Below are positions 9,425 to 39,233 of a DNA stretch of 64,000 bases, one piece after another; positions within the stretch are counted from its first letter, which is position 1; each line of letters starts with the position of its first letter. A model generated the notes under the pieces. That model ran no database searches, had not been told where the DNA came from, and saw nothing but the letters and a program-made list of their open reading frames with translations. The position numbers were made by a program, and so were the translations under genes. The stretch is from Patescibacteria group bacterium. GTDB lineage: Bacteria; Patescibacteriota; Saccharimonadia; UBA4664. Location: NCBI GenBank assembly GCA_028288925.1, contig JAQGHG010000005.1:15991-79990 (forward strand), written 5' to 3'.

Positions 9425-9442
9425 GGTTTTATGATACCAGAG

Positions 9443-11359: not shown

Positions 11360-11363
11360 AGTG

Positions 11364-13232: not shown

Positions 13233-13309
13233 TTGTCCGAAAATCCTCAGTTCACGTTAATTTTAGCACAAGCATTATGGTGTCCGCTAGACGAAAATGT
13301 CAGCGAATA

Positions 13310-23655: not shown

Positions 23656-23708
23656 GGCGTCTCCTGAGTATTATTATATCGCGATCGCACATCGAATATA
23701 CCGAACGC

Positions 23709-23737
23709 TTGCCGAACATGCAACGGTTTGGTATGAT
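23709..23737 (+). promoter_or_regulatory. Sigma70 promoter with extended -10, probably producing a leaderless mRNA for the HD-domain gene
   Basis: TTGCCG (23709-23714), 17-nt spacer, TGgTATGAT (23729-23737). The ATG at 23744 is only 6 nt after the -10 element. Confidence 0.5.
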
Positions 23738-23743
23738 CAGCCT

Positions 23744-24343
23744 ATGAATAAGCCTTCTACATCTGAGATTGTGGCTGTGGCTAGCGAGCTTCTCGTTCCG
23801 ATGTCGGCGGTGGAGCGGACGATTCGGTATCCGGTTTTGGGCCGGTGGGAGAACGACGCGGATCATAGCTATCTGCTAGCGACACTGGGCTGCGCTTTGG
23901 CCTGTCAGATTGATCAGAAGCTTGATCTTGGCAAGATTAGCCAATACGCGCTGGTTCACGATTTAGTGGAGGTGCATGCCGGCGATACTACGATTTGGGC
24001 GGAGGAAGAGTGGCGCGAGAGCAAGACTCGGAGAGAGGCTGACGCATTACAGCACATCGAGAAGAGGTTTGGTACTTCTTTCCCGTGGATTGCTAAAACA
24101 ATCCATGTGTATGAGCGGCTTGATGAACCGGAAAGCTGCTTTGTCTACGCCCTTGATAAGCTCTTGCCCTATATTGTTATGGATGTAGTCGACCACCAGC
24201 CGTTTCCGCCTACCCGGGACGTTTATGAAGAAAAAATGGCGACGGCCCGCCAAAAGATTTCTCGCTATCCGAAGCTTTTGGCTTACTTCGAAGATTTGTA
24301 TGCTCAGCATAAGGACAAACCGCATTTCTTTGCGTCGGATTAG
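23744..24343 (+). CDS. HD-domain phosphohydrolase (YfbR-like 5'-deoxynucleotidase family)
   Basis: H...HD motif (ADHSYLLATLG...ALVHDLVEVHAGD). Start taken at the internal ATG 23744, which is promoter-supported. Confidence 0.7.
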   Translation: MNKPSTSEIVAVASELLVPMSAVERTIRYPVLGRWENDADHSYLLATLGCALACQIDQKLDLGKISQYALVHDLVEVHAGDTTIWAEEEWRESKTRREADALQHIEKRFGTSFPWIAKTIHVYERLDEPESCFVYALDKLLPYIVMDVVDHQPFPPTRDVYEEKMATARQKISRYPKLLAYFEDLYAQHKDKPHFFASD

Positions 24344-24461: not shown

Positions 24462-25745
24462 TTAGGCGGCTGGGCTTTCGGTGTAGTACCAGTTGAGCTG
24501 CTTTGCTAGGGCTGTGGAACGCTCTTTCGCGGCGTCTTCGGTGGTACGGCTGTGGGCTAAGTCGCCGATGAGGCGGCCGAGTTCCTTGGCTTGCGGTACG
24601 GTCAGGCCGCGGCTGGCGAGGGCGGCGGTACCGAGACGGATTCCGCTGGGCCGCCAGGCGGACTTGGTGTCGAAGGGTATCATGTTGCGATTAGTAATGA
24701 TACCGGCGCGCTCCAATAGGCGCTGGAATTCGAGGCTGTCGGTTTGCTCGGGGAGTTTGAGGAGGCAGAGGTGGTTCTGGGTGGGGCTGACAACGGTGAG
24801 TCCGGCTTCGGCCGCGCCCTGCTCCAACGCCTGGCAGGTGTCTAGGACGGCTTGGGAGTATTCGCGGAAGGTGCGCCCGTCTGGATACTGGTCTTCGCCG
24901 AGGATTTCGAGCAGGGCCTGGCCGGTAGCGGCAATCTGGTGTAGGTGTGGGCCGCCCGAAGTGCCGGGGAAGATGGTTTTGTTGATGGTGGGCATGTGCT
25001 GGGTCTTGGCGAAGAGCATGGCGCTGCGTGGTCCGCGGAAGGTCTTGTGCGTGGTCATGGAGACGAAGTCGGCGCCGGCGTCTCCCGCCTGGAACGGCGT
25101 GTCGTGCAGACCGGCCGCGACCAAGCCGTTGATGTGGGCGATGTCGGCTAGTACCAGGGCGCCGGCTTCGTGGGCCCACTTGGCCATTTGGGCAAATTCG
25201 TATTTACGCGGATAGGCCGAGAAACCCAAGATTACCAGTTTTGGCTTGTGCTCGCGTAATTTGGCGCGGTAATCATCTTGGTCGATCTCGAAGGTTCCGG
25301 GCGCGGTTTCGGTGACATCGTAGTTTACGAGCTTGAAAAATTTGAGAAAGTTGGAGGTGGCGTGCATGTGGGAGAGGTGTCCACCATTGGCCAGATTGAG
25401 GCTCATGATGGTGTCGCCGGCCTCGAGCATGGCCAGGAAGACCATGGCGTTGGCGGGTGAGCCGGACAGCACCTGGACGTTGACGCCGTATTCGCCGGTT
25501 TTATCGAAGACCTCAAGCGCCTTTTGTTGGACGTAGGTTTCCATCTCGTCGGCGTGAATGTTTCCGGCGTAATAGCGCTTGCCGGGGGTGCCTTCGGCGT
25601 ATTTGTTCATCCAGACGCTGCCGAGGAGTTGGAGTACCTTGGGTGAGGGATAGTTTTCGGAGGCTATGAGGTTGAGCGTATCGCGTTGTTTGGCGAATTC
25701 TTGGGCGGTGAGCTGAAAAAGCTTGTTCTGGTTGGTTTGAACCAT
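24462..25745 (-). CDS. glyA: Serine hydroxymethyltransferase
   Basis: Full-length SHMT (427 aa) with a PLP-lysine region (...SMTTHKTFRGPR...). AAGGAG SD lies 8 nt upstream. Confidence 0.9.
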   Translation of the reverse strand: MVQTNQNKLFQLTAQEFAKQRDTLNLIASENYPSPKVLQLLGSVWMNKYAEGTPGKRYYAGNIHADEMETYVQQKALEVFDKTGEYGVNVQVLSGSPANAMVFLAMLEAGDTIMSLNLANGGHLSHMHATSNFLKFFKLVNYDVTETAPGTFEIDQDDYRAKLREHKPKLVILGFSAYPRKYEFAQMAKWAHEAGALVLADIAHINGLVAAGLHDTPFQAGDAGADFVSMTTHKTFRGPRSAMLFAKTQHMPTINKTIFPGTSGGPHLHQIAATGQALLEILGEDQYPDGRTFREYSQAVLDTCQALEQGAAEAGLTVVSPTQNHLCLLKLPEQTDSLEFQRLLERAGIITNRNMIPFDTKSAWRPSGIRLGTAALASRGLTVPQAKELGRLIGDLAHSRTTEDAAKERSTALAKQLNWYYTESPAA

Positions 25746-25811
25746 TATGGAATCTCCTTAGTCGCGGTCAGTAATGATCGCGGTTAGCGGCCGGTCATAC
25801 GTTGCTGCTTT

Positions 25812-25826
25812 TTAAGGGTGTTTCAT
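25812..25826 (-). promoter_or_regulatory. Mini-ORF MKHP-stop (ATG AAA CAC CCT TAA), copy 1, 66 nt upstream of glyA
   Basis: Reverse complement of ttaagggtgtttcat. The same tetrapeptide mini-ORF recurs at 26491-26505 and 30034-30048. Confidence 0.45.
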
Positions 25827-25886
25827 GGCGTAAAAATTGAGCTTAATCAGTATAGGGTTTAAGTGTACCAGATTGTTAGTGAGGTC

Positions 25887-26438
25887 CTAATTGGCGGGGC
25901 TTTGCATGAGCCGGAATAGTTCATCACGCGCTGCGGGTTTGACTTTGTACTCACCTATTAAGCATGATGTCGTGGTTTGAACGCCGGATTTCTGGATACC
26001 TCTCATCTCCATGCAGAGGTGCCGGGCTGTCAGCTCTACTGCTACGCCTTTTGGGCTGAGCTCATTCTCGAGGAAGCGTGCAGTTTGGGTTGTGATCCTC
26101 TCCTGGTTTTGAAGTCTGCGGCTAAAGTGGTCGAGCGTGCGGGCGAGTTTTGAGAGCCCGACAATCTTGGTTGACGGGATGTAGGCTATGGTTCCATGTC
26201 CGAAGAATGGGACCAGATGGTGCTCGCAGATGCTATAGAAAGGTATGCCGGCCTGAACGATCATTTCGTCGTACCCGTCGCTCTCGAATGTGGTCATCGT
26301 GAAAGGCTTGGGTTGCATAAACTCGGTGAGGAATTTTTCGTGGCGTCTGGGTGTGTTTCGGAGCCCTTCGCGGCTAGGCTCACTATCAATATGGCCAATG
26401 AGATGCCGGATGGCTTCCTCGGTAGTAATGGTAGTCAT
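25887..26438 (-). CDS. folE: GTP cyclohydrolase I
   Basis: 183 aa with the FolE core (...SICEHHLVPFFGHGTIAYIP...). Confidence 0.9.
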   Translation of the reverse strand: MTTITTEEAIRHLIGHIDSEPSREGLRNTPRRHEKFLTEFMQPKPFTMTTFESDGYDEMIVQAGIPFYSICEHHLVPFFGHGTIAYIPSTKIVGLSKLARTLDHFSRRLQNQERITTQTARFLENELSPKGVAVELTARHLCMEMRGIQKSGVQTTTSCLIGEYKVKPAARDELFRLMQSPAN

Positions 26439-26490
26439 AAAACTATCCTTGCTTGATTAAGCGGTATGGGTGACTTGAGTTGAGAGAGGT

Positions 26491-26505
26491 TTATGGGTGC
26501 TTCAT
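26491..26505 (-). promoter_or_regulatory. Mini-ORF MKHP-stop (ATG AAG CAC CCA TAA), copy 2, 52 nt upstream of folE and 6 nt after the folC stop codon
   Basis: Reverse complement of ttatgggtgcttcat. A second CACCCATA lies 19 nt further downstream on the gene strand. Confidence 0.45.
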
Positions 26506-26511
26506 GGCTGG

Positions 26512-27771
26512 TTACTTACGGATAACTTCGTTAAGCATGGGTCGGATTTGGCGTATTAGGTAAATAGACCCGGTGATGAGCAGAGTTTTTTGGGGTTGGG
26601 CGAGGAAGCTTCGCAGCGCTTGGCTGGTTGTTGAGAATTCCCGTGTATAGGTAACTCCGGCTTGCTTGGCGGCTTCAGCGATAACATGCGCCGGTAATGA
26701 TTCTTTGTACTGATCCTGCTGGTCTGAAAATTCCGTGATGAACAATTTGGAGCATATCGGTGCCAGGGCGGCGATTCGTTGAGCGAGGACATACTCTGGG
26801 ACACTCACGAAGCCCATAAGGGTGGGCAGCGGCGCGAGGCCTTGATTGGCCAGTTCGACGCCCAAGGCCGCTAGCTTTTGAGGATTGTGAGCCCCATCGA
26901 GGATGACTGTTTTGTCGCCGATATGATATCTCTCGAAGCGGCCGGGGGGTACCTGCGAGCTTACTTCCTGGATGTCGGCGGCGGTCGTAGCGGGAAGATT
27001 ATCCCGGCCGGCTAGATGGTGGTAAGCCGTGAGTGCCAGAGCCAGATTGCGTTGCTGAAACGATACGAGGCCAGGCAGGGGCGCGGCCCGTGTGGCGTAT
27101 TCTATGGTAGCCCCTTGCTCTTTCGCGCGTTGGCTGAACATACGGGCTACTCGCGGCGGTTGAGGTGAAGTAACAAGGTGATTGCCGGCCTGGATGATGC
27201 CGGCTTTTTGAGCGGCGATTTCTTCGATTGAGGTCCCCAAGATCTCGGTGTGCTCAAGGCCGATGTCGCAGATGACACAGAGTTTGTCCTCGCGGTTCAC
27301 GACATTTGAACCGTCGAGGAGTCCACCTAGGCCGGTTTCAATAATCGCGTAATCGACGCCTTCCTTGGCGAAGAACCAGTACGCGAACGCCATGAGCAGT
27401 TCGTAGTAGGTCGGTGCGATCTTCGTCGCCGCTACCTGGTGCATAAACAGGTCGAGCTCTTCGGCGAACCGGGCGTCGCTGAGCGGCACGCCATCGAGCT
27501 GGATTCGCTCGTTGATGGCGACGATGTGAGGCGAGATGGTCAAGCCGGTTCGTTTGCCGGCTTTCTGGAGGAGGCCTCTTATGAAGTACGCCGTGGAGGT
27601 CTTTCCGGAAGTTCCCGCTATATGTATGACCTTGAGCTGATTTTGTGGATTACCCAGCAACCCTAACAGTGTGCGCATGCGGTCGAGCGTGTAGTTTTCC
27701 TTCAGGCTAGTCTTCGGCACGAAGGAGCGTAAGGTCGCGTTGATGTCATAGTGAGTAGGTATATTTGTCAT
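26512..27771 (-). CDS. folC: Folylpolyglutamate synthase / dihydrofolate synthase (Mur ligase family)
   Basis: P-loop GTSGKTSTAYFIRGLL and Mur-ligase central and C-terminal domains. 419 aa. Confidence 0.8.
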   Translation of the reverse strand: MTNIPTHYDINATLRSFVPKTSLKENYTLDRMRTLLGLLGNPQNQLKVIHIAGTSGKTSTAYFIRGLLQKAGKRTGLTISPHIVAINERIQLDGVPLSDARFAEELDLFMHQVAATKIAPTYYELLMAFAYWFFAKEGVDYAIIETGLGGLLDGSNVVNREDKLCVICDIGLEHTEILGTSIEEIAAQKAGIIQAGNHLVTSPQPPRVARMFSQRAKEQGATIEYATRAAPLPGLVSFQQRNLALALTAYHHLAGRDNLPATTAADIQEVSSQVPPGRFERYHIGDKTVILDGAHNPQKLAALGVELANQGLAPLPTLMGFVSVPEYVLAQRIAALAPICSKLFITEFSDQQDQYKESLPAHVIAEAAKQAGVTYTREFSTTSQALRSFLAQPQKTLLITGSIYLIRQIRPMLNEVIRK

Positions 27772-28598
27772 GACAGCGGCTCTTTATCGGTGGATTGAAG
27801 CGCCTCAACAATGGCGCGGGTCTGGACCGCGGCCTTCACGTCGTGGGCACGGATGATCCCGGCCCCGTGTAGCATGGCGTAAGATTGGACGACGGCCGTG
27901 GCGACGCGGCGTTCTTCGAGCGGCGCGGCGACTCCATTTGTAGCTAGGGCCTTGCCCAGAAAACTTTTCTGCGACGCGCCGTAGAGGACTTTGTAGCCAA
28001 GTTTGGCGAAGGTTCTCATTTCGCGGGTGAGCTCGAAGCTTTGAGCGGCGGTCTTGGCGAACCCGATCCCTGGGTCGATGATGATGTTGCCGGGAGACAC
28101 CCCTAGAGTCTCCAAGTCTTGGGCACGGTTAAGCAGAAAGTTTTTTACCTCACCGACAACCCCGCCGGGATAGTGAGTCAGTCGCGACATGGTCGTGGGG
28201 GTTCCTCTGGAATGCATGATTACGACCCGGACACCGCTGTGGGCGACGAGCTGACGCATCATCAAGTCTTCGCAGCCATGAACGTCGTTGATGAGGCTGG
28301 CTCCAGCCTTGAGGGCGGCCGCCGCTACCAGAGGCTTAAATGTATCAATCGATATCGGAATATTGGTGAGGTCGCGGGCCAACATTATGGCCGGAATCAC
28401 CCGGCTCTGTTCGTCCGCGGCGCTAATGACCTCTGCTCCAGGACGGGTACTCTGGCCGCCGATGTCCAGTATATCGGCCCCCTCGGCGATGGCGGCCTCA
28501 ACTCGCTGACGCAGCGCTGTTTCGTTGCCGATGTTGACGCCGTCTTTGTTGAATGAATCTGGCGAAGTATTGATGATCGCCATAATTTGAATTGACAT
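27768..28598 (-). CDS. folP: Dihydropteroate synthase
   Basis: Pterin-binding TIM barrel (MAIINTSPDSF...DIGGQSTRPGA...). 276 aa. Overlaps folC by 4 nt. Confidence 0.85.
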   Translation of the reverse strand: MSIQIMAIINTSPDSFNKDGVNIGNETALRQRVEAAIAEGADILDIGGQSTRPGAEVISAADEQSRVIPAIMLARDLTNIPISIDTFKPLVAAAALKAGASLINDVHGCEDLMMRQLVAHSGVRVVIMHSRGTPTTMSRLTHYPGGVVGEVKNFLLNRAQDLETLGVSPGNIIIDPGIGFAKTAAQSFELTREMRTFAKLGYKVLYGASQKSFLGKALATNGVAAPLEERRVATAVVQSYAMLHGAGIIRAHDVKAAVQTRAIVEALQSTDKEPLS

Positions 28599-28601
28599 GG
28601 T

Positions 28602-29459
28602 TCACTCCGCGCTTTCGGATGGTTGGCTCGCGAAACAAGCTTGGACGGCATTATCATAGGTGCGCTGAACAAGTGGTTCGAAGGCTTCGAAAAGTGCCAG
28701 CTTGCTAAGGGAAAACGCGGCGTTAACTTCCATGACTTTTAGTCCCTCAGTTGTCGTTACGATGTCGACGGCCGCGAAATGGAGCTGGATCGCAGTCAGT
28801 GTTGCCTGGGCTAGTTTGATGAGCTCGCTTTTTAAACGTCCATCGGCGACTTCGGACGGTAGGGCGCCAAATTGCAGATTGTGCCGCCACTCCCCTCCGC
28901 CTGGTGGCCGTACTTTCCGGAAGAGCAGTTGTGGCTGCTGGTTCAGTAGGACGATTCGGTATTCGTCGATAATATCCTCGAAGGGCGAGGCTGCGATGGT
29001 CCGATAGTGCGAGGACATGGTTTCCAAAATGGCCTGCAGCTCCTTGGGTGTAGTGGCTTTGTAGACGTCGGCGCCGCCGCCCCTGTCGCAGGGTTTTAAT
29101 ACAAGCGGCAACTGGGCGTTGCTCAACGTGGCTTGGATGGTTGCCTCCACCGTTTGCTGAGGAGGAAACCTAATTAACCAGTGGGGAATCGTTGGTATCT
29201 GAGCATCTTTCAGAACATGATAGGTCGCGACTTTGTCACGGGCGATCCCCGCTGAAGCCGCGTTATTGAGCGGAAAGAGAAGCGAGGAGATGTGGGTTAC
29301 GCGGCCGTTTTTGGTAAGACGGCATATCCAGTAGTCCGAGAGCCAATCAACCGTTACTTGCTGGCGGCGACAAGCCGTCTCTATGTGACCAACGAAGGTC
29401 TCACGGGTTTTCCATTCGCTAAGCTTAAACAAGCTATGCGCTGTATCGGTGGAGTGCAT
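28602..29459 (-). CDS. ATP-grasp family ligase (RimK/GshB-like) embedded in the folate operon
   Basis: ATP-grasp motifs LVLKPCDRGGGADVY and MEVNAAFS. Probable start is the internal ATG at 29459 (MHSTDTA...), which avoids overlap with the upstream gene; the track ORF runs to 29528. Confidence 0.6.
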   Translation of the reverse strand: MHSTDTAHSLFKLSEWKTRETFVGHIETACRRQQVTVDWLSDYWICRLTKNGRVTHISSLLFPLNNAASAGIARDKVATYHVLKDAQIPTIPHWLIRFPPQQTVEATIQATLSNAQLPLVLKPCDRGGGADVYKATTPKELQAILETMSSHYRTIAASPFEDIIDEYRIVLLNQQPQLLFRKVRPPGGGEWRHNLQFGALPSEVADGRLKSELIKLAQATLTAIQLHFAAVDIVTTTEGLKVMEVNAAFSLSKLALFEAFEPLVQRTYDNAVQACFASQPSESAE

Positions 29460-29472
29460 ATTTGAAAAAGAC

Positions 29473-29988
29473 CTAGTTAGTGGTTGTAATGATGTAGTGA
29501 TTGACGACCGTGCCATCGGAGACTTCAACTTGGCTGTCGAGAAGCTCGAGTTTGACGTCCATATTCAGATCGAACAGCGGCATACCCCGGCCGAATAGTA
29601 CGGGCTGAATGGAAAGATAGAGCTCGGTGATGAGGCCGGCTTCCATGTATTGGTTGTAGATTTGCAGACCGCCGGCGACTATGACGCTCTTGGCGCCTTC
29701 GTTTTCGAGGCGTTCTAGCAGCTGGGCCGGTGAGTCACTGGTGTATTCGACTCCTTCGACGGTTTCGTGGTCTTTGCGTGTGAGCACGATGAGACGGCGG
29801 CCGGGCAGGGCTTTCCCGAAGGTGGCGAAGGTGTTGTAGCCCATCACGACGATGCCGGCTTGTTTGGTGACGCGGGTAAAGAACCGTTTGTCACTAGATG
29901 TGGTCCAGGTGGTAGACAGGTGCTCCCGGTCGCGGGCGATGTAGCCATCGGCCGTTTGGGTCGCTAAAAGTATGATTTTCATGATCAT
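29473..29988 (-). CDS. Dihydrofolate reductase-like protein (RibD_C / DHFR family)
   Basis: KIILLATQTADGYIARD...GYNTF...LIVLTR...VIVAGGLQIYNQYM matches the RibD C-terminal / DHFR-like reductase pattern. 171 aa. Confidence 0.65.
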   Translation of the reverse strand: MIMKIILLATQTADGYIARDREHLSTTWTTSSDKRFFTRVTKQAGIVVMGYNTFATFGKALPGRRLIVLTRKDHETVEGVEYTSDSPAQLLERLENEGAKSVIVAGGLQIYNQYMEAGLITELYLSIQPVLFGRGMPLFDLNMDVKLELLDSQVEVSDGTVVNHYIITTTN

Positions 29989-33628: not shown

Positions 33629-34471
33629 TTAGAGAATTACCAAGTCGGTCTTGATGTGCGGGTGCGGGTCGTAGCCCTCGAGCACGAAGTTTTCTTCTTT
33701 GAAGTCGTCGATGGTTTTGACGTCGCCGACGATTTTGAGCTTGGGGAAGGGTCGGGGCTTGCGGTGGAGCTGCTCCTTGGCGGCTTCGATGTGGTTGCGG
33801 TAGAGGTGGGCGTTGCCGGCCGAGATGATGAGCTCGCGCGGCTCGGCGCCCACCAGGTGCGCCACCATATACAGCAGCATGGCGTACTGGGCGATGTTGA
33901 AGGGCGCGCCTAGGAAGACGTCCCACGAGCGCTGGTAGAGATGCAGGCGGAGTTTGCCGTCGGTCAGATCAAATTGGAACATGGTGTGGCACGGGGGCAG
34001 GCGAATATCGCCGTAGTCGTCGGGATTCCAGCGCTTGTCGCCGAGCTCGCCGGCATTCCATGCGCTTACGATGATGCCCTTGGAGTCCGGATTGGTTTTG
34101 AGCTGATCAATGGCCCAGGCTAGCTGGTCAAATTCGGTGCCGTTGGGCCGTAGCCAGTGCCGCCATTGCACGCCGTAGATGCGGCCGAGGTCGTTGGAGC
34201 CTTCGTGTAGGAAGCCGTCCCAGTAGCGGATTTTGTGCTCGTGGAGGTAGGTGACGTCGGAACTGCCGGAGATGAACCAGAGCAGCTCGTGGAGCAGAAT
34301 TTTAAACGGCATTTTCTTGGTGGTAAGCAGCGGGAAGCCGTAGCGCAGGTCGAAGTGGACCTGGGCGCCGAAGACCGACTTGAGTGGCCAAATGCCGCGT
34401 GACGGCTTGCTGCGGCCGTCCTTGAGGATGGTGGCCATGAGTTTGAGGTATTCGTATTCTGGATGTTTCAT
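33629..34471 (-). CDS. thyA: Thymidylate synthase
   Basis: ThyA hallmarks: LPPCHTMFQFDL...RSWDVFLGAPFNIAQYAML. 280 aa. Confidence 0.9.
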   Translation of the reverse strand: MKHPEYEYLKLMATILKDGRSKPSRGIWPLKSVFGAQVHFDLRYGFPLLTTKKMPFKILLHELLWFISGSSDVTYLHEHKIRYWDGFLHEGSNDLGRIYGVQWRHWLRPNGTEFDQLAWAIDQLKTNPDSKGIIVSAWNAGELGDKRWNPDDYGDIRLPPCHTMFQFDLTDGKLRLHLYQRSWDVFLGAPFNIAQYAMLLYMVAHLVGAEPRELIISAGNAHLYRNHIEAAKEQLHRKPRPFPKLKIVGDVKTIDDFKEENFVLEGYDPHPHIKTDLVIL

Positions 34472-34851
34472 GCGGTTCCTTCGTAGCGCACGGTGGCGCC
34501 GAGCGTTTTATTGTCTAATTCAATGTAGGCGAGCTGCGTTATCTGCGGCGCGAGCTTTTGGTAGGTCCAGCGTGCTACCTGCTCAAAGGTGGGCCGGAAT
34601 TCAAACAGCTCGGTCCATTTTTGGCTGGAGAGGTGGCTAGCTGTGGCAGCGAGTATATCATCCAGGCTATCGGTGTCTACGAACCAACCTCGTTCCCCCA
34701 TCTGGTCATCGTCGAAGCGAATGGCTGCCGTCAGGGTGATGCTGTAGCCGTCTACGGGCTGGAGTGGGGCTAGCTTTTTAGCGTCGCGAATGGGTGATTT
34801 AAGTCCCTGGAGAGCTTTAAATTCTTTTCGTAGCGTTACAACATAACTCAT
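34468..34851 (-). CDS. PTPS/QueD (T-fold)-like protein lacking the canonical zinc-binding His/Cys residues
   Basis: Similar to 6-pyruvoyl-tetrahydropterin synthase at GWFVDTDSLDDIL (compare GMVxDFxDLK) and at PTFEQVARW (compare PTxENLAxW). However AAIRF replaces AAHRL, there is no HGH triad and the protein has no Cys. Overlaps thyA by 4 nt. Confidence 0.45.
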   Translation of the reverse strand: MSYVVTLRKEFKALQGLKSPIRDAKKLAPLQPVDGYSITLTAAIRFDDDQMGERGWFVDTDSLDDILAATASHLSSQKWTELFEFRPTFEQVARWTYQKLAPQITQLAYIELDNKTLGATVRYEGTA

Positions 34852-34935: not shown

Positions 34936-35511
34936 ATGCTGAAAGATTTGCCAGTCGTGCTGTTCGAATCGTCCGGGTATTGGGAGCAGTGGCTCAACGC
35001 CCATCACGCCCAACCACAGGGCCTTTGGCTCAAGATTGCCAAGAAAGCTTCGGGTACGCCGTCGGTTTCTTATGCCGAGGCGCTGGATGTCGCCCTCTGC
35101 TATGGCTGGATTGACGGGCAAAAGCAATCATTTGACGAGCAGTATTATCTGCAGAAGTTTACGCCGCGCCGCCCCCGGAGTATTTGGTCGAAGGTTAATG
35201 TCGGGAAGATTGCCGTGCTGACTGCCGCGGGCAAGATGATGCCGTCTGGATTGGCTGCGGTCGAGGCTGCCCAACAGGATGGGCGGTGGGATCAAGCTTA
35301 TGATTCGCACCGTACTAGCACAGTGCCGGCTGACTTTCAGGAGGCTCTCGACCAAAGCCCTCAAGCCAAGACCTTCTTTGTTACGCTTAATAAAACCAAC
35401 GCGTACGCTATATTGTGGCGTATTCAAACTGCCAAAAAGCCGGAGACACGACGGGCCAGGATAGAGAAGTTTATCGTAATGTTAAGTGCGGGAAAGAAAT
35501 TTTATCCCTGA
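34936..35511 (+). CDS. YdeI/OmpD-associated family protein (DUF1801-like)
   Basis: WEQWLNAHHAQ...LWLKIAKKASG...ALCYGWIDGQK and a C-terminal ...RIEKFIVML motif typical of the family. Confidence 0.6.
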   Translation: MLKDLPVVLFESSGYWEQWLNAHHAQPQGLWLKIAKKASGTPSVSYAEALDVALCYGWIDGQKQSFDEQYYLQKFTPRRPRSIWSKVNVGKIAVLTAAGKMMPSGLAAVEAAQQDGRWDQAYDSHRTSTVPADFQEALDQSPQAKTFFVTLNKTNAYAILWRIQTAKKPETRRARIEKFIVMLSAGKKFYP

Positions 35512-36512
35512 GCAACGACACGCCGTACCACCTTGCCGGCCCGCTCGAGCATTTGGACGGCGTAGCCTTCGGAGTGATCAACACTATAGACGAATTCGGC
35601 GATATCGGTCTCGGTGAACATGCGGGCGCAGGCGGGACACGGCAAGAGGTTGATGAAGAGCGTGGCGCCGCGCAGGTCAATCCCCTCTTTTTGGGCTTTG
35701 ATGATCATTTCGACCTCGGCGTGGACGGTGTCGTAGTGGTTGAGGTCGTGCGGCGGCGAGAAGTTAGTCTCGCGTGAGGCGCCGTAGTGCATGGCGTAGG
35801 TTTGGAACGGTACCACCCGGTTGAAGGCGGCGGCGAGGTATTCGTAGGTACCGGCGGCCTTGGCGGCGCGGCCCAGCGTAACGCCGGTCTGGAAACTGTA
35901 GTCGAAGGAGAGCTTGGCCGTGTCGCCGGCGAGGGCGAGCATTTCGGCTTCGGAATGTGTTTCTCCCGTCTTGGGCGCGATCAGGGCGAGCATTTCGGGC
36001 ATCACGCGGGCTTCGTACTCGCGGGCTTCGGCTTCGTCGGTGAAGGGCGAGATCATTTCGTACGGGATATGCCGGTTGATGAGCGTGTAATAATTTTCGG
36101 TGGTGTGGAAGGCCTGCTTCCAGGAGCCGTTGATGAGCACGACGCGCTGGAGCGCGAGCTTCTCTAGAATATATTTGGTCTCACGCTGGGCATAGCTGAG
36201 GGCGGCGATGGTGTGTTTGCCGCTGGATGCGTTTACTTTGTCGATAATTGGCTGGACGGTGGCGGCTTGGAGCGTACGAAACTGCGGTTGGCCTTCGAAC
36301 CCGGCGATGTAATCTTCTTTGGCTAGTCCGAGGATGATATTACCCCGCGGCAAGTAGGTTTTGATGAGCTGGGTGAAGCGTTTCACAGAGATTTCACGCG
36401 GGGCGGCAATGAAGGTGGCCTTCAATTCATTGAGCGGCTTCTTGCTTTGGAAAGCCATATCCGACCAATCGAAGACGTAATTATTCATAACTTTAGGCTT
36501 TGGATGGACCAT
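35502..36512 (-). CDS. dCMP/cytidine deaminase-fold protein with about 190-aa N-terminal domain of unknown function
   Basis: The C-terminal region carries HAEVEMI...LLPCPACARM, a zinc-dependent CDA motif of the dCMP-deaminase type. No match was recognised for the N-terminal half. The alternative start at ATG 36488 abuts the upstream gene's stop. Confidence 0.7.
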   Translation of the reverse strand: MVHPKPKVMNNYVFDWSDMAFQSKKPLNELKATFIAAPREISVKRFTQLIKTYLPRGNIILGLAKEDYIAGFEGQPQFRTLQAATVQPIIDKVNASSGKHTIAALSYAQRETKYILEKLALQRVVLINGSWKQAFHTTENYYTLINRHIPYEMISPFTDEAEAREYEARVMPEMLALIAPKTGETHSEAEMLALAGDTAKLSFDYSFQTGVTLGRAAKAAGTYEYLAAAFNRVVPFQTYAMHYGASRETNFSPPHDLNHYDTVHAEVEMIIKAQKEGIDLRGATLFINLLPCPACARMFTETDIAEFVYSVDHSEGYAVQMLERAGKVVRRVVAQG

Positions 36513-37477
36513 TTAAGCCCGTCGGAGATGCGCGGATGATTGGCGACCTCGCCGCGAGGCACCCATAGCGTGCTCTCGCAGTCGTCGCCGGGCGTAAGGG
36601 GCGTGGCCGAATCAAACCCGGTGAGCACATAGGTGTTGCGCAAGGAGCGATTTTGGGGCTTGTGCCCGGCATACAAGTGGTGGGTAGTGGCGAGGGCCGG
36701 GGCTATCTCGACGAGCGAGCTCACGAGTGTGATCGCTCGCGGGTCGATGCCGATGCCGATTTCTTCGGCGACTTCGCGGGCTAGCTCGACTTCCAAGGTT
36801 TCACTGAAGTCGTCGATACCGCCGCCCGGGATGGTGATGTAGTCCGGCGCGAACTTGGCCCAATCTACGCGCTCCTCGAAGAGGATCTCGTCCTTCTCAT
36901 TGATAATGATGAGGTCGCAAACGATCCTGAGGCCGCTGGGTTTTTTGTATTTTTGGTCGAATTTAGTGCTGAGTTTGGCGATCTTTTTGTGGGCGGTGCG
37001 ATACAGCTCGGCGTTTTCAAGCGGCGTGTGTTTGAGTTTGCGGTAGTTCCAGACGGCCAGATCGGGTGCGTCGAATGGTACGCAGTGGAAGTGCAGATGT
37101 TGGTCGACGGTGCTTTGGGCGTTGGCGCCGTCCTTCTGGACGAGCTGCATGCCGCTGATACCATAGACTTCCTTGATGAGTTTCTTGGCGATGTAGGTGA
37201 ATTTGCGGATGGTGTCCCACTCGGCCTGGGTGAGCTCCTTGATGGAGCGGATATGGCGGCGCGGCACGATCATGAAGTGCCCGTCGATGTAGGCATAGAG
37301 GCTGACGGTCATAACTATGCCGTTTTCTTCGAAGAAGACGTATTTGTCGCGCAGATCGCAAAACACGCATTTGCCGACGGACTTCCAGATGTCGTCGTAG
37401 GCGCCGGAGGACCGGGCGTCGCGATAGCGGATTTGTTTGGCTTGTTCGCCGGGGGTAAGGGAGGTGGAATGCGCCAT
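36485..37477 (-). CDS. HIT (histidine triad) - NUDIX fusion hydrolase
   Basis: N-terminal half has CVFCDL...HLHFHCVP (HxHxHxx). C-terminal half has the Nudix box GGGIDDFSETLEVELAREVAEEIG. 330 aa. Confidence 0.75.
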   Translation of the reverse strand: MAHSTSLTPGEQAKQIRYRDARSSGAYDDIWKSVGKCVFCDLRDKYVFFEENGIVMTVSLYAYIDGHFMIVPRRHIRSIKELTQAEWDTIRKFTYIAKKLIKEVYGISGMQLVQKDGANAQSTVDQHLHFHCVPFDAPDLAVWNYRKLKHTPLENAELYRTAHKKIAKLSTKFDQKYKKPSGLRIVCDLIIINEKDEILFEERVDWAKFAPDYITIPGGGIDDFSETLEVELAREVAEEIGIGIDPRAITLVSSLVEIAPALATTHHLYAGHKPQNRSLRNTYVLTGFDSATPLTPGDDCESTLWVPRGEVANHPRISDGLKWSIQSLKL

Positions 37478-37482
37478 GATGG

Positions 37483-38040
37483 TTATTTTTCCTTGAGCGG
37501 ATCTTTGCGCATTTCCATGAAGTCTTTGAAGACGCTGCCGAGTTCGCCGCCGATGGCGCGTTGAACTATCTTGGTGGTGGAAAGCACGGTGGATTGGCGG
37601 TCGACCACCTTCACTTCGCCGCCGTACTTGGTGACGGTTTTGTATTCTTTGGACTGCTTATAGTTTTCGGTCCAGTCTTCTTTGACGGTAATGAAGATGT
37701 CGGGGCGCAGCAGGCCGAGAGTCGGCTGGCAGCTGGGTTCGGGCAATATGGTGACGAAGTCGATGGAGCGGATGTAGGTGAGCATTTCGGCGCGGATTTT
37801 CTCGCCGAGGATGGGTTTGTTGGGGCCTTTCACGCGGCGGATGGCGTCGTCGCTGCTTACGCCTACTACCAGGATGTCGCCGTGGTTTTTGGCTTCTTCG
37901 AAGTAGCGGCAGTGGCCCACATGCAGGAGGTCCCAGGAGCCGGCGGTGAAGACAACCTTTTTGCCCTTTTCTTTGAGTTTTTCTTGCAGGACCATGAGAT
38001 CGCTCTGGGACACGAGGCGTTTTTTCCAGGACGTAGGCAT
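37483..38040 (-). CDS. HIGH-motif nucleotidyltransferase (CTP_transf_like: TagD/ECT/HldE-domain-II-like)
   Basis: VVFTAGSWDLLHVGHCRYF...RSIDFVTIL...STTKIV corresponds to the cytidylyl/adenylyl-transferase core. 185 aa. Confidence 0.75.
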   Translation of the reverse strand: MPTSWKKRLVSQSDLMVLQEKLKEKGKKVVFTAGSWDLLHVGHCRYFEEAKNHGDILVVGVSSDDAIRRVKGPNKPILGEKIRAEMLTYIRSIDFVTILPEPSCQPTLGLLRPDIFITVKEDWTENYKQSKEYKTVTKYGGEVKVVDRQSTVLSTTKIVQRAIGGELGSVFKDFMEMRKDPLKEK

Positions 38041-38087
38041 GCGAGAATCTCCGGTGCGTTAGGGTGTTTTGAATATCACTACCAATT

Positions 38088-39233
38088 CTATACGGTTTTG
38101 CCGATCTTATCGAGAACCTTGAGCGGTGTTATGATGCCTCGTTCCATTAATATGCCGGTTGTGCGGACATAATGTTCATTTTGGTCCAAATATTCGTAAG
38201 GATTGTGGCGGAGAAATTTGTACCAGTCGTAGATCAGGAAGAGATCTACTAATTCTTCGAGCACATCGAGCTGATGATTGTGCGACTTCAGAACCGGGGT
38301 ATCAAAGTGCGCCTGGCCGCGGCGATTGTAGCCCGAGACGAGGAAGTATTTGCGGATTTGGGCCTCGGTCTTGTATTTGCAGTCGACGAGCAGGAAGGCC
38401 AGGGTGCGGGCGATGTCGAACACCGGGTGGCCGGTGGCGGTTTTCTCGAAATCGAGGATGCCGGAGATGTACAGGCCCTCCCCCGCTCCCCCGAACAGAA
38501 TATTGCCGCGTACGAAGTCCATGTGGAGCGCCTGCGAGCTCGGTAGCGCGCGGCAGAGGCGGAGGACGTGCCGCATACGGCCGAGGGTGGCGGGCCGGGG
38601 GACGTAGCCGATCTTGGCGGCCAGCGCGGTGCGGACCTCCCGCATGCCGAAATAGGTCGACAGTCGGCCTATAATGGCTTCGTATTCGTCCTCCACCGGA
38701 TTGAGCTGGACGCCGGTGGGCAATTCGCGCAGTGCGGCATGCATGGCGCTGAGGGTACCGCCCAGTAGCTTGATGTGCGCCTGAGTGTAGGCTTCCCAGG
38801 GGATGGTGCGGCCGGGCAGGTAGCGATACAGCGCGCCGTACTTGTCCCGGGTGGGCGCGCGCAGGCGGATAATGCGCGGGTCGTAGGTACCGCGCGCGGG
38901 CAGCCCCCGACCGGCCAGGAAATCCGATACATGATTGGCGTGCCTGATCTTGACGACGATGCCGGGCTCGGACTTGTAGAGAATGAGGTTGAGCGCTGTC
39001 TGATCCGGCAGGATTACGGGGTAGGCTCTGTTGCGGTAGCCGGATTGGGGCGCGAGGATGCGGGCGGCGGGGATGCCGTAGCCGGATAGAATTCGCCCGA
39101 TGATTAAGATTTCTTTTGGCTTTATGATAGTCGGCACTCCGTATAGGCACAATTGTAACATTGGGACGAAGCCGGCTGGTGCCGGTATGACCGGTGTGCT
39201 ACTTTTATAGGTAATATGTTGATACATAAGCAT
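38088..39233 (-). CDS. APH/choline-ethanolamine-kinase-like small-molecule kinase
   Basis: Catalytic loop HMDFVRGNILF and DFE (ILDFEKT) motif, in a protein-kinase-like fold. Probable start is an internal Met near 39161, since the track ORF overlaps the divergent gene. Confidence 0.65.
   Translation of the reverse strand: MLMYQHITYKSSTPVIPAPAGFVPMLQLCLYGVPTIIKPKEILIIGRILSGYGIPAARILAPQSGYRNRAYPVILPDQTALNLILYKSEPGIVVKIRHANHVSDFLAGRGLPARGTYDPRIIRLRAPTRDKYGALYRYLPGRTIPWEAYTQAHIKLLGGTLSAMHAALRELPTGVQLNPVEDEYEAIIGRLSTYFGMREVRTALAAKIGYVPRPATLGRMRHVLRLCRALPSSQALHMDFVRGNILFGGAGEGLYISGILDFEKTATGHPVFDIARTLAFLLVDCKYKTEAQIRKYFLVSGYNRRGQAHFDTPVLKSHNHQLDVLEELVDLFLIYDWYKFLRHNPYEYLDQNEHYVRTTGILMERGIITPLKVLDKIGKTV

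What the first reader, a model, noticed from the sequence alone, without database searches (positions are those of the whole stretch)
36485..39233. Candidate undescribed nucleotide-activation module: APH/choline-kinase-like kinase, HIGH-type cytidylyltransferase and HIT-NUDIX fusion
A small-molecule kinase of the APH/ChoK fold followed by a CTP_transf_like nucleotidyltransferase is the logic of the Kennedy pathway (X gives X-P gives CDP-X) or of AmgK/MurU-type sugar-1-P activation. Immediately downstream, a single polypeptide fuses two families that cleave nucleoside-diphosphate-X or phosphoramidate bonds. This looks like a built-in editing or turnover enzyme for the activated product. All four genes, counting the deaminase fusion, are co-directional and tightly spaced. 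The obvious use for the product would be envelope decoration (phosphocholine, phosphoethanolamine, glycerol-P or sugar-P) in cooperation with the nearby GT4 or the GT-C enzymes.
Basis: inference. Interest (0 to 1): 0.65.

Follow-up and report, generated by a model that had tools for sequence, protein, structure and literature searches.

The report
Kinase–cytidylyltransferase–HIT module tied to thymidylate synthesis
A small-molecule kinase, a cytidylyltransferase and a HIT-NUDIX hydrolase form a real, conserved and so far undescribed gene module in Saccharibacteria and other ultra-small (CPR) bacteria. It is wired to dCMP deaminase and thymidylate synthase rather than to the cell envelope, so it may be a new way of feeding DNA thymine synthesis.

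Summary
On the minus strand lie an APH-fold kinase (38088-39161), an HxGH cytidylyltransferase (CT, 37483-38040), a HIT-NUDIX fusion (36485-37477) and an unknown-domain/dCMP-deaminase fusion (35502-36488). The last three are separated by 5 nt or overlap by 4 nt.

The source is a Saccharimonadia (Patescibacteria) genome. Kinase>CT>HIT>deaminase is kept in 76 of 78 species-level genomes. ThyA and a DHFR-like gene stay linked through several rearrangements.

Other Patescibacteria carry fusions: kinase-CT-CT-HIT, CT-HIT, HIT-deaminase and ATP-cone-CT-NUDIX-dCMP deaminase. These always sit beside dCMP deaminase and a thymidylate-synthase-like gene, and once directly after NrdD-NrdG.

So the "Kennedy-like activation plus built-in cleavage" logic is supported. 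The proposed envelope-decoration purpose is not.

My best model is inferred, not shown. The kinase makes X-phosphate, CT makes (d)CDP-X from (d)CTP, and HIT or NUDIX releases (d)CMP for deamination to dUMP and methylation to dTMP. This would be a carrier-mediated counterpart of phage T4 dCTPase or of Dcd+Dut.

The substrate X is unknown. I found no description of the module in the literature searched.

The parts
38088..39161 (-). APH/ELK-fold small-molecule kinase (KIN), 357 aa. The longest ORF runs to 39233.
   Evidence: PF01636, E=3e-16. Catalytic HMDFVRGN and DFE motifs. AlphaFold2 pLDDT 91. Foldseek best hits are homoserine kinase II, YtaA, amicoumacin kinase and aminopropanol kinase, with TM about 0.6 and 13-15% identity. 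More than 1200 homologues, about 55% identical among those listed, all named ones Saccharimonadales. Homologous to the kinase domain of the KIN-CT-CT-HIT fusions.
37483..38040 (-). HxGH (HIGH-type) cytidylyltransferase-like nucleotidyltransferase (CT), 185 aa.
   Evidence: PF01467. rfaE_dom_II scores 121.8 bits, below its 181.5 cut-off. PDB best hits are human ECT 3elb and HldC 5x9q. The 120 best homologues listed are 81-93% identical. It is 36-45% identical to the CT domains of the fusion proteins.
37070..37372 (-). HIT domain of the HIT-NUDIX protein (the whole ORF is 36485-37477).
   Evidence: PF01230, E=2e-10. HLHFHCV motif at residue 127. Closest solved structures are Ap4A-phosphorylase-type HIT proteins. 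It is 37-41% identical to the HIT domains fused to CT in other Patescibacteria.
36545..36919 (-). NUDIX domain of the HIT-NUDIX protein. The Nudix box is at 36752-36820.
   Evidence: PF00293, E=4.5e-8. Complete GX5EX7REUXEEXGU box. Present in only 14 of 80 related genomes.
35949..36488 (-). N-terminal domain (about 180 aa) of the deaminase protein. No Pfam match. It looks like a Rossmann-type (HUP-class) nucleotide-binding domain.
   Evidence: No Pfam family even at E<=10. AlphaFold2 pLDDT 91. Weak Foldseek hits to Fom1 CyTase, HldC, PPAT and PP-loop ATPases. hhalign aligns VVLINGSWKQAFH with VVFTAGSWDLLHVGH of the CT, at only 33% probability.
35502..35948 (-). dCMP-deaminase domain of the same protein.
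   Evidence: PF00383. HAE and PCPAC motifs. Profile best hits are T4, human, cyanophage and Streptococcus mutans dCMP deaminases. ATGA overlap with the HIT-NUDIX stop codon. HIT-deaminase fusions P0247, P0254, P0277 and P0291 exist.
33629..34471 (-). Thymidylate synthase ThyA, a linked partner of the module.
   Evidence: PF00303 at 319 bits. TIGR03284 at 303 bits, above its 108 cut-off. Found within 9 kb of the kinase in 65 of 80 genomes, in at least three arrangements.
29473..29988 (-). Divergent DHFR-like reductase, a linked partner of the module.
   Evidence: Best NCBIfam hits are DHFRs at about 40 bits; RibD_C scores 27 bits. Found within 9 kb in 50 of 80 genomes. In L003 and L002 it directly follows the deaminase with a 4-nt overlap.

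Best explanation
The four genes are one operon-level module of pyrimidine deoxynucleotide metabolism in Patescibacteria.

Shown:
- The kinase, CT, HIT (with or without NUDIX) and dCMP-deaminase genes are kept together.
- They are fused to one another in various combinations.
- They are always linked to thymidylate synthase.

Inferred mechanism:
1. The APH-fold kinase phosphorylates a small hydroxyl compound X, possibly an amino-alcohol or a sugar.
2. The ECT/TagD-like CT condenses X-phosphate with dCTP (or CTP), giving (d)CDP-X and PPi.
3. The HIT and/or NUDIX hydrolase splits (d)CDP-X into (d)CMP and X-phosphate.
4. The deaminase, fused or translationally coupled, turns dCMP into dUMP.
5. ThyA, with DHFR and SHMT, turns dUMP into dTMP.

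The net effect is dCTP to dCMP to dUMP to dTMP. That is the step done by phage T4 gp56 dCTPase, or by Dcd plus Dut, in other organisms. X-phosphate would act as a recyclable carrier, and CT would supply the specificity for cytosine nucleotides. The N-terminal HUP-like domain of the deaminase may be a degenerate second CT domain or a nucleotide sensor.
For: 1. Order KIN>CT>HIT>(NUDIX)>deaminase in 76 of 78 Saccharimonadia genomes (deaminase 68 of 71). ThyA (65 of 80) and DHFR (50 of 80) remain linked through inversions and relocations.
2. Chain of fusion proteins: KIN-CT-CT-HIT (P0368, P0372), CT-CT-HIT (P0364), CT-HIT (P0382, P0387), KIN-CT (L092), HIT-NUDIX (window), HIT-deaminase (P0247 and others), ATP-cone-CT-NUDIX-dCMP deaminase (P0381) and ATP-cone-CT-NUDIX (P0380). 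The window's HIT, CT and KIN are homologous to these (E=1e-43 to 8e-15).
3. Operons in other Patescibacteria, mostly with overlapping stop and start codons: NrdD-NrdG-KIN-CT2-HIT-dCMP deaminase-ThyA-like (L089); GT-[KIN-CT-CT-HIT]-deaminase-ThyA-Tmk (L084); the same core in L090 and L092; [ATP-cone-CT-NUDIX-deaminase]-ThyA (L087). Class III ribonucleotide reductase makes dNTPs (established knowledge). The module therefore sits exactly at the dCTP-to-dCMP gap.
4. HIT and NUDIX substitute for each other next to CT. Both families cleave NMP-X or NDP-X bonds (established knowledge).
5. Positional replacement: in Southlakia, which appears to lack the module, dCTP deaminase lies between Tmk and DHFR-ThyA.
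6. CT groups with CDP-alcohol-forming enzymes. The best solved-structure match is ECT, and a neighbouring family is fused to a CDP-alcohol phosphatidyltransferase.
7. The ATP-cone is a nucleotide-sensing domain typical of ribonucleotide reductases and NrdR (established knowledge). It is fused to CT in 3 of the 40 nearest representative clusters.
Against: - No enzyme was assayed. X is unknown, and the nucleotide used by CT (dCTP, CTP or ATP) was not determined.
- A carrier-mediated route looks needlessly complex, because a NUDIX or MazG enzyme can hydrolyse dCTP directly.
- If X-phosphate is recycled, a dedicated kinase is needed only for priming.
- The second His of the HxGH motif is Gln in many orthologues.
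- A GT-B glycosyltransferase recurs near the module in several lineages and is unexplained by this model.
- Saccharimonadia genomes are broadly syntenic: ribosomal-protein genes are also conserved nearby. Order conservation within that class alone is therefore weak evidence. The weight rests on the fusions and on the other lineages.
- Absence of Dcd, Dut or other dCTPases in module-bearing genomes was not tested genome-wide.
- The Southlakia supplementary tables may have been truncated when stored, so the module's absence there is not certain.
Confidence: 0.4

Rival explanations
1. Envelope decoration. Kinase plus CT make CDP-choline, CDP-ethanolamine, CDP-glycerol or an NDP-sugar for a cell-surface polymer, used by the nearby GT4 or GT-C enzymes. 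HIT-NUDIX only edits or turns over the product. The deaminase merely recycles the released CMP or dCMP.
For: - CT is closest to ECT, TagD and HldE-II.
- Its relatives have the tandem-CT (ECT) architecture, and a neighbouring family is fused to CDP-OH_P_transf and GT2.
- A GT-B glycosyltransferase lies near the module in Saccharimonadia (58 of 80 loci) and directly upstream in L084 and L090.
- In Southlakia the only PF01467 protein found sits beside an essential GT4 in an envelope cluster.
Against: - No phosphotransferase of the CDP-alcohol, LicD or TagF type is seen in any module neighbourhood examined.
- The constant partners are dCMP deaminase, ThyA, DHFR, Tmk and NrdDG.
- CT is fused to ATP-cone, NUDIX and dCMP deaminase.
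- The window GT4 and the L084 glycosyltransferase are only 27% identical over 135 residues.
- In Saccharimonadia the GT4 is convergent with ThyA, not co-transcribed with the module.
Confidence: 0.17
2. Deoxynucleoside or nucleotide salvage with a different division of labour. The kinase is a novel deoxycytidine or deoxyuridine kinase supplying dCMP directly. CT makes a dinucleotide (NMNAT-like, ATP + dNMP) or a regulatory nucleotide. HIT and NUDIX degrade that product.
For: - The nucleotide-metabolism context is the same as for the best explanation.
- These organisms lack de novo nucleotide synthesis and live on salvaged nucleosides (PMC6031116).
- The kinase's invariant residues include many Arg, Lys and His, which may point to an anionic or polar substrate.
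Against: - I know of no nucleoside kinase with the APH fold; this rests on my own knowledge and was not tested.
- The CT branch (ECT, TagD, HldE-II) uses alcohol-phosphate or sugar-phosphate acceptors.
- No NMNAT or NadM model is matched.
- The model gives no productive role to the CT-HIT pairing.
Confidence: 0.13
3. Cofactor salvage. Kinase plus CT act as riboflavin kinase and a RibL-like FMN adenylyltransferase (or as NR kinase plus NMNAT, or pantetheine kinase plus PPAT). NUDIX and HIT act as FAD or NAD pyrophosphatases. The deaminase and the DHFR-like protein are RibD-like.
For: - Weak CT hits to archaeal PPAT and RibF models.
- Faint FAD_syn hits in tandem-CT relatives.
- The DHFR-like protein also hits RibD_C.
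- CT-NUDIX is the architecture of NadM-Nudix proteins (my own knowledge).
- A Tmk-ThyX fusion (ThyX needs FAD) lies nearby in 31 loci.
Against: - All such hits are far below their cut-offs.
- The deaminase matches dCMP deaminases better than RibD.
- No RibA, RibB, RibH or RibE gene is in any neighbourhood examined.
- The ATP-cone fusion and the NrdDG, ThyA and Tmk context point to deoxynucleotides.
Confidence: 0.08
4. Unrelated housekeeping genes kept together only by the strong synteny of reduced genomes. The kinase would be a type II homoserine kinase (ThrB), as NCBI names it.
For: - NCBI calls P0001 'thrB'.
- The Foldseek top hit is homoserine kinase 2ppq.
- The window encodes aspartate kinase, homoserine dehydrogenase and aspartate-semialdehyde dehydrogenase at 60137-63671.
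- Ribosomal-protein genes are also syntenic near the module.
Against: - The homoserine-kinase equivalog scores 37 bits against a cut-off of 271.
- Kinase domains are physically fused to CT and HIT in other lineages.
- The module recurs with a different gene order and different fusions in distant Patescibacteria.
Confidence: 0.04
5. Pyrimidine hypermodification, like T-even phages. The module builds a nucleotide-linked group that ends up on hydroxymethyl-pyrimidine DNA bases, together with the ThyA-like enzyme and the GT-B glycosyltransferase.
For: - In non-Saccharimonadia lineages the ThyA-like protein is very divergent (25% identity to the window ThyA) and is fused to MtrA-like and pterin-binding domains.
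- A GT-B enzyme is adjacent there.
- The gene set resembles the T4 set of NrdDG, dCTPase, cd, td and frd (my own knowledge).
Against: - The window ThyA is a canonical thymidylate synthase (above the TIGR03284 cut-off) with a DHFR-like gene and SHMT nearby.
- No DNA-modifying enzyme is seen in the neighbourhoods.
- This reading is purely speculative.
Confidence: 0.04

Closest known systems
Eukaryotic Kennedy pathway (choline/ethanolamine kinase plus CCT/ECT)
   Same: An APH/ChoK-fold kinase is followed by an HxGH cytidylyltransferase. The best solved-structure match of the CT is human ECT. Its nearest relatives have ECT's tandem-CT architecture.
   Different: No CDP-alcohol phosphotransferase partner is seen. 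The window CT has a single domain. It is coupled to HIT, NUDIX, dCMP deaminase and thymidylate synthase instead of lipid genes. The kinase does not reach any ChoK or EtnK model.
Phage T4 dCTPase (gp56) with dCMP deaminase, thymidylate synthase and DHFR; and the bacterial Dcd+Dut route to dUMP
   Same: It holds the same position in pathway logic and in the operon: after ribonucleotide reductase and before dCMP deaminase and ThyA. In Southlakia, Dcd sits at the corresponding genomic place.
   Different: The enzyme families are entirely different. The proposed route goes through a (d)CDP-X intermediate made by a nucleotidyltransferase, not by direct hydrolysis or deamination of dCTP.
HldE domain II / HldC heptose-1-phosphate nucleotidyltransferases
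   Same: This is the best NCBIfam match (rfaE_dom_II, 121.8 bits, covering 140 of 144 profile positions), including the N-terminal linker region.
   Different: The score is below the family cut-off of 181.5. The (F/L)XXGRSTT 'STTR5' motif reads QSTVLSTT. No GmhA, GmhB or ribokinase-type HldA gene is nearby.
LicA/LicC and AmgK/MurU (bacterial kinase plus nucleotidyltransferase pairs)
   Same: Both pair an APH-fold kinase with a nucleotidyltransferase to activate choline or MurNAc.
   Different: LicC and MurU belong to the unrelated NTP_transferase fold (my own knowledge). Neither pair has HIT, NUDIX or deaminase partners.
NadM-Nudix bifunctional proteins (NMNAT fused to ADP-ribose pyrophosphatase)
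   Same: The CT-NUDIX domain architecture is seen in P0380 and P0381.
   Different: No NMNAT model is matched. The CT-NUDIX proteins here are also fused to an ATP-cone and to dCMP deaminase.
Rv2613c-type Ap4A phosphorylase / Fhit-Hint HIT proteins
   Same: These are the best HIT matches. The HxHxHxx motif is conserved.
   Different: The score is 47.6 bits against a cut-off of 290. Here HIT is fused to NUDIX, to CT or to the deaminase.

Membership tests
APH / ELK-fold small-molecule kinase superfamily | Pfam PF01636 above the gathering score; HxDxxxxN catalytic loop plus a DFG-like Asp; bilobal kinase fold | tested here: met
   60.3 bits against a 23.2 cut-off. HMDFVRGN and DFE motifs. Foldseek probability 1.0 to many APH-type kinases.
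Type II homoserine kinase (ThrB-alt) | NCBIfam equivalog score at or above the cut-off | tested here: not met
   NF003558 scores 37.4 against 271. TIGR00938 scores 20.7 against 255.9.
Choline/ethanolamine kinase (PF01633) | Match to the Choline_kinase model | tested here: not met
   No PF01633 hit for the window protein at E<=0.01. Only 2 of the 120 listed homologues carry a precomputed hit.
CTP_transf_like HIGH-type nucleotidyltransferases | PF01467 above cut-off; HxGH motif after strand 1; C-terminal (R)xxxxSTT motif | tested here: met
   52.9 bits against 21. HVGH at residue 40 and RQSTVLSTT at 148-156. In many orthologues the second His is Gln.
HldE-II / HldC heptose-1-P nucleotidyltransferase | TIGR02199 at or above 181.5 bits; (F/L)XXGRSTT or GCSTT motif; heptose pathway genes present | tested here: not met
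   121.8 bits. The motif reads QSTVLSTT. No GmhA, GmhB or HldA gene in the window or in the 80 loci.
Glycerol-3-phosphate cytidylyltransferase TagD | TIGR01518 at or above 165 bits | tested here: not met
   37.4 bits.
PPAT / NMNAT / FMN adenylyltransferase | Match to the corresponding equivalog models | tested here: not met
   Archaeal PPAT models score 30 and 23 bits against cut-offs of 104 and 290. RibF models score about 18 bits. No NMNAT model is listed.
HIT superfamily | PF01230 above cut-off; HxHxHxx histidine triad | tested here: met
   41.6 bits against 21.5. HLHFHCV motif.
Ap4A phosphorylase (ATP adenylyltransferase) subfamily | NF052622 at or above 290 bits | tested here: not met
   47.6 bits.
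NUDIX hydrolases | PF00293 above cut-off; Nudix box GX5EX7REUXEEXGU | tested here: met
   33.6 bits against 21.1. The box is complete at residues 220-242. No specific equivalog (MutT, RppH, NudB) is reached.
dCMP deaminase (ComEB/DCTD type) | CDA-fold zinc motifs HAE and PCxxC; best similarity to dCMP deaminases; activity on dCMP | tested here: inconclusive
   The motifs are present, and the best PDB profile hits are dCMP deaminases. However, the ComEB equivalog scores 34.7 against 219, and activity cannot be tested here.
Kennedy-type CDP-alcohol pathway | Kinase plus cytidylyltransferase plus a CDP-alcohol phosphotransferase that uses the product | tested here: inconclusive
   The first two components are present. 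No CDP-OH_P_transf gene was seen in the window genes scanned or near any of the loci. Whole genomes could not be checked.
Anti-phage nucleotide-depletion systems (dCTP deaminase, Thoeris ThsC) | Match to PADLOC system models in a defence-island context | tested here: not met
   Only generic domain hits: HIT to ThsC2 at 37.6 bits and the deaminase to dCTPase at 30.9 bits. The kinase and CT have no hits. The context is housekeeping and is conserved across the class.

The most novel reading that the evidence does not exclude
Patescibacteria make dUMP for thymidylate synthesis by a previously unknown carrier-mediated route. An ECT-like cytidylyltransferase loads dCMP from dCTP onto a kinase-generated phospho-alcohol, giving dCDP-X. 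A HIT or NUDIX enzyme then releases dCMP for a coupled deaminase. Control is allosteric, through an ATP-cone in some lineages and a degenerate CT-like domain on the deaminase in Saccharimonadia. This would be a new branch of deoxynucleotide metabolism and the first physiological role for deoxy-CDP-alcohols.
Probability: 0.25. Interest if true: 0.85.

Novelty: new variant of a known kind. Interest (0 to 1): 0.7.

Why it matters
Patescibacteria (CPR) make up a large share of bacterial diversity. They cannot make nucleotides de novo, so how they balance their dNTP pools is central to their parasitic lifestyle and is poorly understood.

This module was found in 161 species-level Saccharimonadia genomes and in several other Patescibacteria lineages examined. 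Its CT is among the most conserved proteins of the region, with a median of about 81% identity. Multiple gene fusions wire it to dCMP deaminase, thymidylate synthase and ribonucleotide reductase.

If the proposed mechanism holds, it defines a new enzymatic route from dCTP to dUMP. It would also assign functions to four widespread "hypothetical" or mis-named genes: the kinase is named thrB or RdoA, and the CT is named rfaE. Finally, it would offer lineage-specific targets and markers.

Even if the mechanism is wrong, the fusion data turn a vague annotation into a directly testable biochemical hypothesis.

Tried and rejected
- A profile of 28 kinase homologues against PDB sequences gave only catalytic-loop matches at E>=0.015, so no subfamily could be assigned.
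- Foldseek of the kinase model gave only fold-level neighbours.
- The N-terminal domain of the deaminase has no Pfam match at E<=10. Its Foldseek hits are weak (best E=6e-3). Its hhalign match to the CT has only 33% probability. I treat the "degenerate CT domain" idea as suggestive only.
- Heptose nucleotidyltransferase idea: the STTR5 motif and the family cut-off are not met, and no heptose genes are nearby. Rejected.
- Folate idea (NUDIX as DHNTP pyrophosphatase; kinase plus CT replacing FolK): the folate genes FolE, FolP, FolC and the ATP-grasp gene lie next to the module only in this window. They are in none of the 80 other genomes' loci and do not track with NUDIX presence. Rejected as a general explanation.
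- Defence-system idea: PADLOC gives only generic domain hits. Rejected.
- Literature searches found no description of the module. Topics searched were Saccharibacteria nucleotide salvage; the T. rhizospherense genome paper; the Southlakia Tn-seq paper; ATP-cone/cytidylyltransferase/Nudix/deaminase; and CPR thymidylate metabolism.
- One genome (L055) has the kinase next to the DHFR-like gene but no CT, HIT or deaminase within 9 kb. This is an exception I did not resolve.

Full report
**What is in the window**

Four co-directional ORFs lie on the minus strand.
- Kinase (KIN), 38088-39233. It probably starts at 39161 and is 357 aa, as in the database protein P0001.
- Cytidylyltransferase-like protein (CT), 37483-38040, 185 aa.
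- HIT-NUDIX fusion, 36485-37477, 330 aa.
- A 328-aa protein, 35502-36488, whose C-terminal part is a CDA-fold deaminase.

Pfam confirms APH (E=3e-16), CTP_transf_like (5.6e-14), HIT (2e-10) plus NUDIX (4.5e-8), and dCMP_cyt_deam_1 (2e-9).

The catalytic signatures are intact:
- HMDFVRGN and DFE in the kinase
- HVGH and LSTT in the CT
- HLHFHCV in the HIT domain
- a complete Nudix box, GIDDFSETLEVELAREVAEEIGI
- HAE and PCPAC in the deaminase

Spacers are 47 nt and 5 nt. The HIT-NUDIX stop codon overlaps the deaminase start codon (ATGA). I see no convincing minus-strand terminator inside the block. The only adjustments are the kinase start and the fact that the deaminase lies just outside the stated range.

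**Where it comes from and how conserved it is**

The kinase has more than 1200 homologues; those listed are about 55% identical. All named ones are from Saccharimonadales or Patescibacteria, and P0001 is 100% identical to the window protein. Among its 120 best listed homologues the CT is far more conserved, at 81-93% identity.

A scan of one genome per species found the kinase in 161 genomes. Apart from a few bins with other labels, the records of the 80 loci kept are titled Saccharimonadia or Saccharibacteria. I compared the window proteins with the 80 best loci by tblastn.
- CT and HIT follow the kinase in 76 of 78 loci that have room for them.
- The deaminase follows in 68 of 71.
- ThyA is within 9 kb in 65 loci, a DHFR-like gene in 50, and a GT4 gene in 58.
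- ThyA is either divergent upstream or co-directional downstream.
- DHFR is upstream or downstream, on either strand.

The linkage therefore survives rearrangement. Ribosomal-protein genes are also syntenic nearby, so order conservation within this class alone is not strong evidence.

The NUDIX domain is present in only 14 of the 80 loci. Elsewhere HIT stands alone (for example 178 aa in L003) or is fused to the deaminase (P0247, P0254, P0277, P0291).

**What the individual proteins resemble**

*Kinase.* A profile search of PDB sequences finds only the catalytic loop. The AlphaFold2 model (pLDDT 91) matches type II homoserine kinase, YtaA, amicoumacin kinase, macrolide and aminoglycoside kinases and aminopropanol kinase, at TM about 0.6 and 13-15% identity. 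The homoserine-kinase equivalog scores 37 bits against a cut-off of 271. So this is an APH-fold small-molecule kinase of no known subfamily.

*CT.* The best matches are rfaE_dom_II (121.8 bits, cut-off 181.5), human ECT (3elb), HldC (5x9q), CCT and TagD. PPAT and RibF models match only faintly, and no NMNAT model matches. The heptose-transferase STTR5 motif, (F/L)XXGRSTT (PMC11573728), reads QSTVLSTT here.

*HIT.* It is closest to Ap4A-phosphorylase-type and Fhit/Hint-type proteins, far below any equivalog cut-off.

*Deaminase domain.* It is closest to the T4, human, cyanophage and Streptococcus mutans dCMP deaminases.

*N-terminal 180 residues of the deaminase protein.* There is no Pfam match. 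The confident model (pLDDT 91) resembles HUP-class Rossmann domains only weakly, including Fom1 CyTase and HldC. hhalign aligns its invariant NGSWKxxFH with the CT's AGSWDLLHVGH at 33% probability. This is suggestive of a degenerate CT-like domain, not proof.

**The decisive evidence: fusions and other lineages**

An exhaustive HMMER search with the CT shows that its nearest relatives outside Saccharimonadia are tandem-CT proteins, which is the ECT architecture. Their sequences and Pfam scans reveal the following fusions:
- KIN-CT-CT-HIT (P0368, P0372)
- CT-CT-HIT (P0364)
- CT-HIT (P0382, P0387)
- KIN-CT (L092)
- ATP-cone-CT-NUDIX (P0380)
- ATP-cone-CT-NUDIX-dCMP deaminase in a single chain (P0381)

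Among the 40 nearest representative clusters, 5 carry HIT, 3 an ATP-cone, 2 NUDIX, 2 APH and 1 a deaminase. The window's own proteins are homologous to these fused domains:
- HIT: 37-41% identical, E=1e-30 to 1e-43
- CT: 36-45% identical
- Kinase: 27% identical over 243 residues to the L089 kinase (E=8e-15)

The genomic contexts in these other Patescibacteria repeat one theme. Most of these genes have overlapping stop and start codons.
- L089: NrdD-NrdG-KIN-CT2-HIT-dCMP deaminase-ThyA-like
- L084: GT-[KIN-CT-CT-HIT]-dCMP deaminase-ThyA-Tmk
- L090 and L091: the same core
- L092: [KIN-CT]-[CT-HIT]-deaminase-ThyA
- L087 and L088: [ATP-cone-CT-NUDIX-deaminase]-ThyA

Together with the HIT-NUDIX fusion (window) and the HIT-deaminase fusions, every component is linked to the others by at least one fusion. 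The unit is always attached to dCMP deaminase and a thymidylate-synthase-like gene.

**Complementary case**

In the oral saccharibacterium Southlakia epibionticum, the published tables show no PF01636 protein. The only PF01467 protein is a different, 144-aa one, in an envelope cluster (PMC10633639). There the thymidylate cluster is Tmk-dCTP deaminase-DHFR-ThyA. The module and Dcd thus occupy equivalent genomic positions. This is one genome only, and the stored tables may be truncated.

**Interpretation**

*Shown.* This is a genuine, conserved multi-gene module. Its CT belongs to the CDP-alcohol/NDP-sugar-forming branch of HxGH transferases. HIT and NUDIX are interchangeable partners of the CT. 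The module is tied to dCMP deaminase, thymidylate synthase, DHFR, Tmk and, once, class III ribonucleotide reductase.

*Inferred.* Class III reductases deliver dNTPs, while dCMP deaminase needs dCMP. The module sits at the dCTP-to-dCMP step, which T4 covers with gp56 dCTPase and many bacteria bypass with Dcd+Dut. The simplest scheme that gives every part a role is:
1. kinase: X to X-P
2. CT: (d)CTP + X-P to (d)CDP-X + PPi
3. HIT or NUDIX: (d)CDP-X to (d)CMP + X-P
4. deaminase: dCMP to dUMP
5. ThyA with DHFR and SHMT: dUMP to dTMP

From memory, dCDP-choline and dCDP-ethanolamine are known natural products of Kennedy-type transferases. I did not verify this here.

Weak points of the scheme:
- X is unknown.
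- The nucleotide specificity of the CT is untested.
- The detour seems unnecessary, because a NUDIX enzyme could hydrolyse dCTP directly.
- A GT-B glycosyltransferase recurs near the module and is unexplained. The glycosyltransferases of different lineages are barely similar.

I put about 0.9 on "real functional module". I put about 0.65 on [quoted passage not shown]. I put about 0.3-0.4 on the specific carrier mechanism.

**Rivals**

It lacks any phosphotransferase partner and does not explain the ATP-cone, deaminase and NrdDG links.
- *Salvage variant.* The kinase would be a deoxynucleoside kinase. This leaves the CT-HIT pair without a productive role.
- *Cofactor salvage (FAD, NAD, CoA).* It rests only on sub-threshold hits.
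- *Unrelated housekeeping, kinase = ThrB.* This is contradicted by the fusions, although the window does encode aspartate kinase, homoserine dehydrogenase and Asd about 20 kb away.
- *T4-like base hypermodification.* This cannot be excluded for the lineages with the aberrant ThyA-pterin-binding fusion. The window ThyA is canonical.

**Novelty**

Five literature searches and two genome papers gave no description of this module. Public annotations call the genes thrB or RdoA, rfaE domain II or glycerol-3-phosphate cytidylyltransferase, and deoxycytidylate deaminase or hypothetical protein.

All the enzyme families are known. The combination, the fusions and the link to thymidylate synthesis are not. 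I rate it a new variant of a known kind (a Kennedy-type activation pair). There is a realistic chance, about 0.25, that it is a categorically new route of deoxynucleotide metabolism.

Noticed in passing
window 24462-29988 and 34468-34851: A folate and one-carbon gene island runs SHMT, GTP cyclohydrolase I (FolE), a FolC-like Mur ligase, dihydropteroate synthase (FolP), a RimK-like ATP-grasp protein and a DHFR-like gene. No FolB or FolK is recognisable in or beside the island. A 127-aa PTPS-like gene overlaps the ThyA start by 4 nt and might be a PTPS-III-type FolB bypass. The island is absent from the other loci examined. The PTPS-like gene recurs only in L081.
   Followed up: partly
L041:6382-8421 and 30 other loci: A 679-aa fusion of dTMP kinase with a ThyX-like C-terminal domain lies within 9 kb of the module in 31 of 84 loci (the window's own 64 kb has none). 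These loci also mostly carry a canonical ThyA.
   Followed up: partly
L084:10711-12180; L087:2515-3975; L090:9675-11147; L092:4144-5571: In other Patescibacteria the thymidylate-synthase-like protein is very divergent (25% identity to the window ThyA). It is fused to a pterin-binding DUF4346 domain, and in L084 and L087 also to an MtrA-like domain. It could be an unusual thymidylate synthase or a hydroxymethylase with a different C1 carrier.
   Followed up: no
CT orthologues in alignment A3 (for example P0170, P0187, P0222, P0234, P0367): In many orthologues of this otherwise extremely conserved CT, the second histidine of the HxGH motif is glutamine (HVGQ or HAGQ). The window protein has HVGH.
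   Followed up: no
window 8432-15624: There are three consecutive GH130 (mannoside phosphorylase-like) genes, two of them about 630 aa with extra N-terminal regions. A GT2 gene and a PMT_2 (GT-C) gene follow. A second PMT_2 gene lies at 2450-4303.
   Followed up: no
window 60137-63671: An aspartate kinase (with ACT domains), homoserine dehydrogenase and aspartate-semialdehyde dehydrogenase cluster. This is unexpected in a lineage described as unable to make amino acids de novo.
   Followed up: no
window 23654-24343: An HD-domain protein of the YfbR-like 5'-deoxynucleotidase type lies next to SHMT. It is another possible player in dNMP metabolism.
   Followed up: no
L055 (CAVUMM010000006.1), 8460-9978: This genome has the DHFR-like gene followed by the kinase, but no CT, HIT or deaminase within 9 kb downstream. 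It is one of two loci with room in which the CT does not follow the kinase (L004 is the other).
   Followed up: partly
whole window: GC skew is positive in every 2-kb bin (+0.06 to +0.23) and AT skew is mostly negative. Yet most genes lie on the minus strand, so coding strands are C- and A-rich. Many long spurious ORFs appear on the opposite strand.
   Followed up: no
P0389 / P0517: A neighbouring CT family is fused to a CDP-alcohol phosphatidyltransferase domain at the N-terminus and a GT2 domain at the C-terminus, up to 905 aa. It looks like a one-protein Kennedy-like membrane pathway.
   Followed up: no
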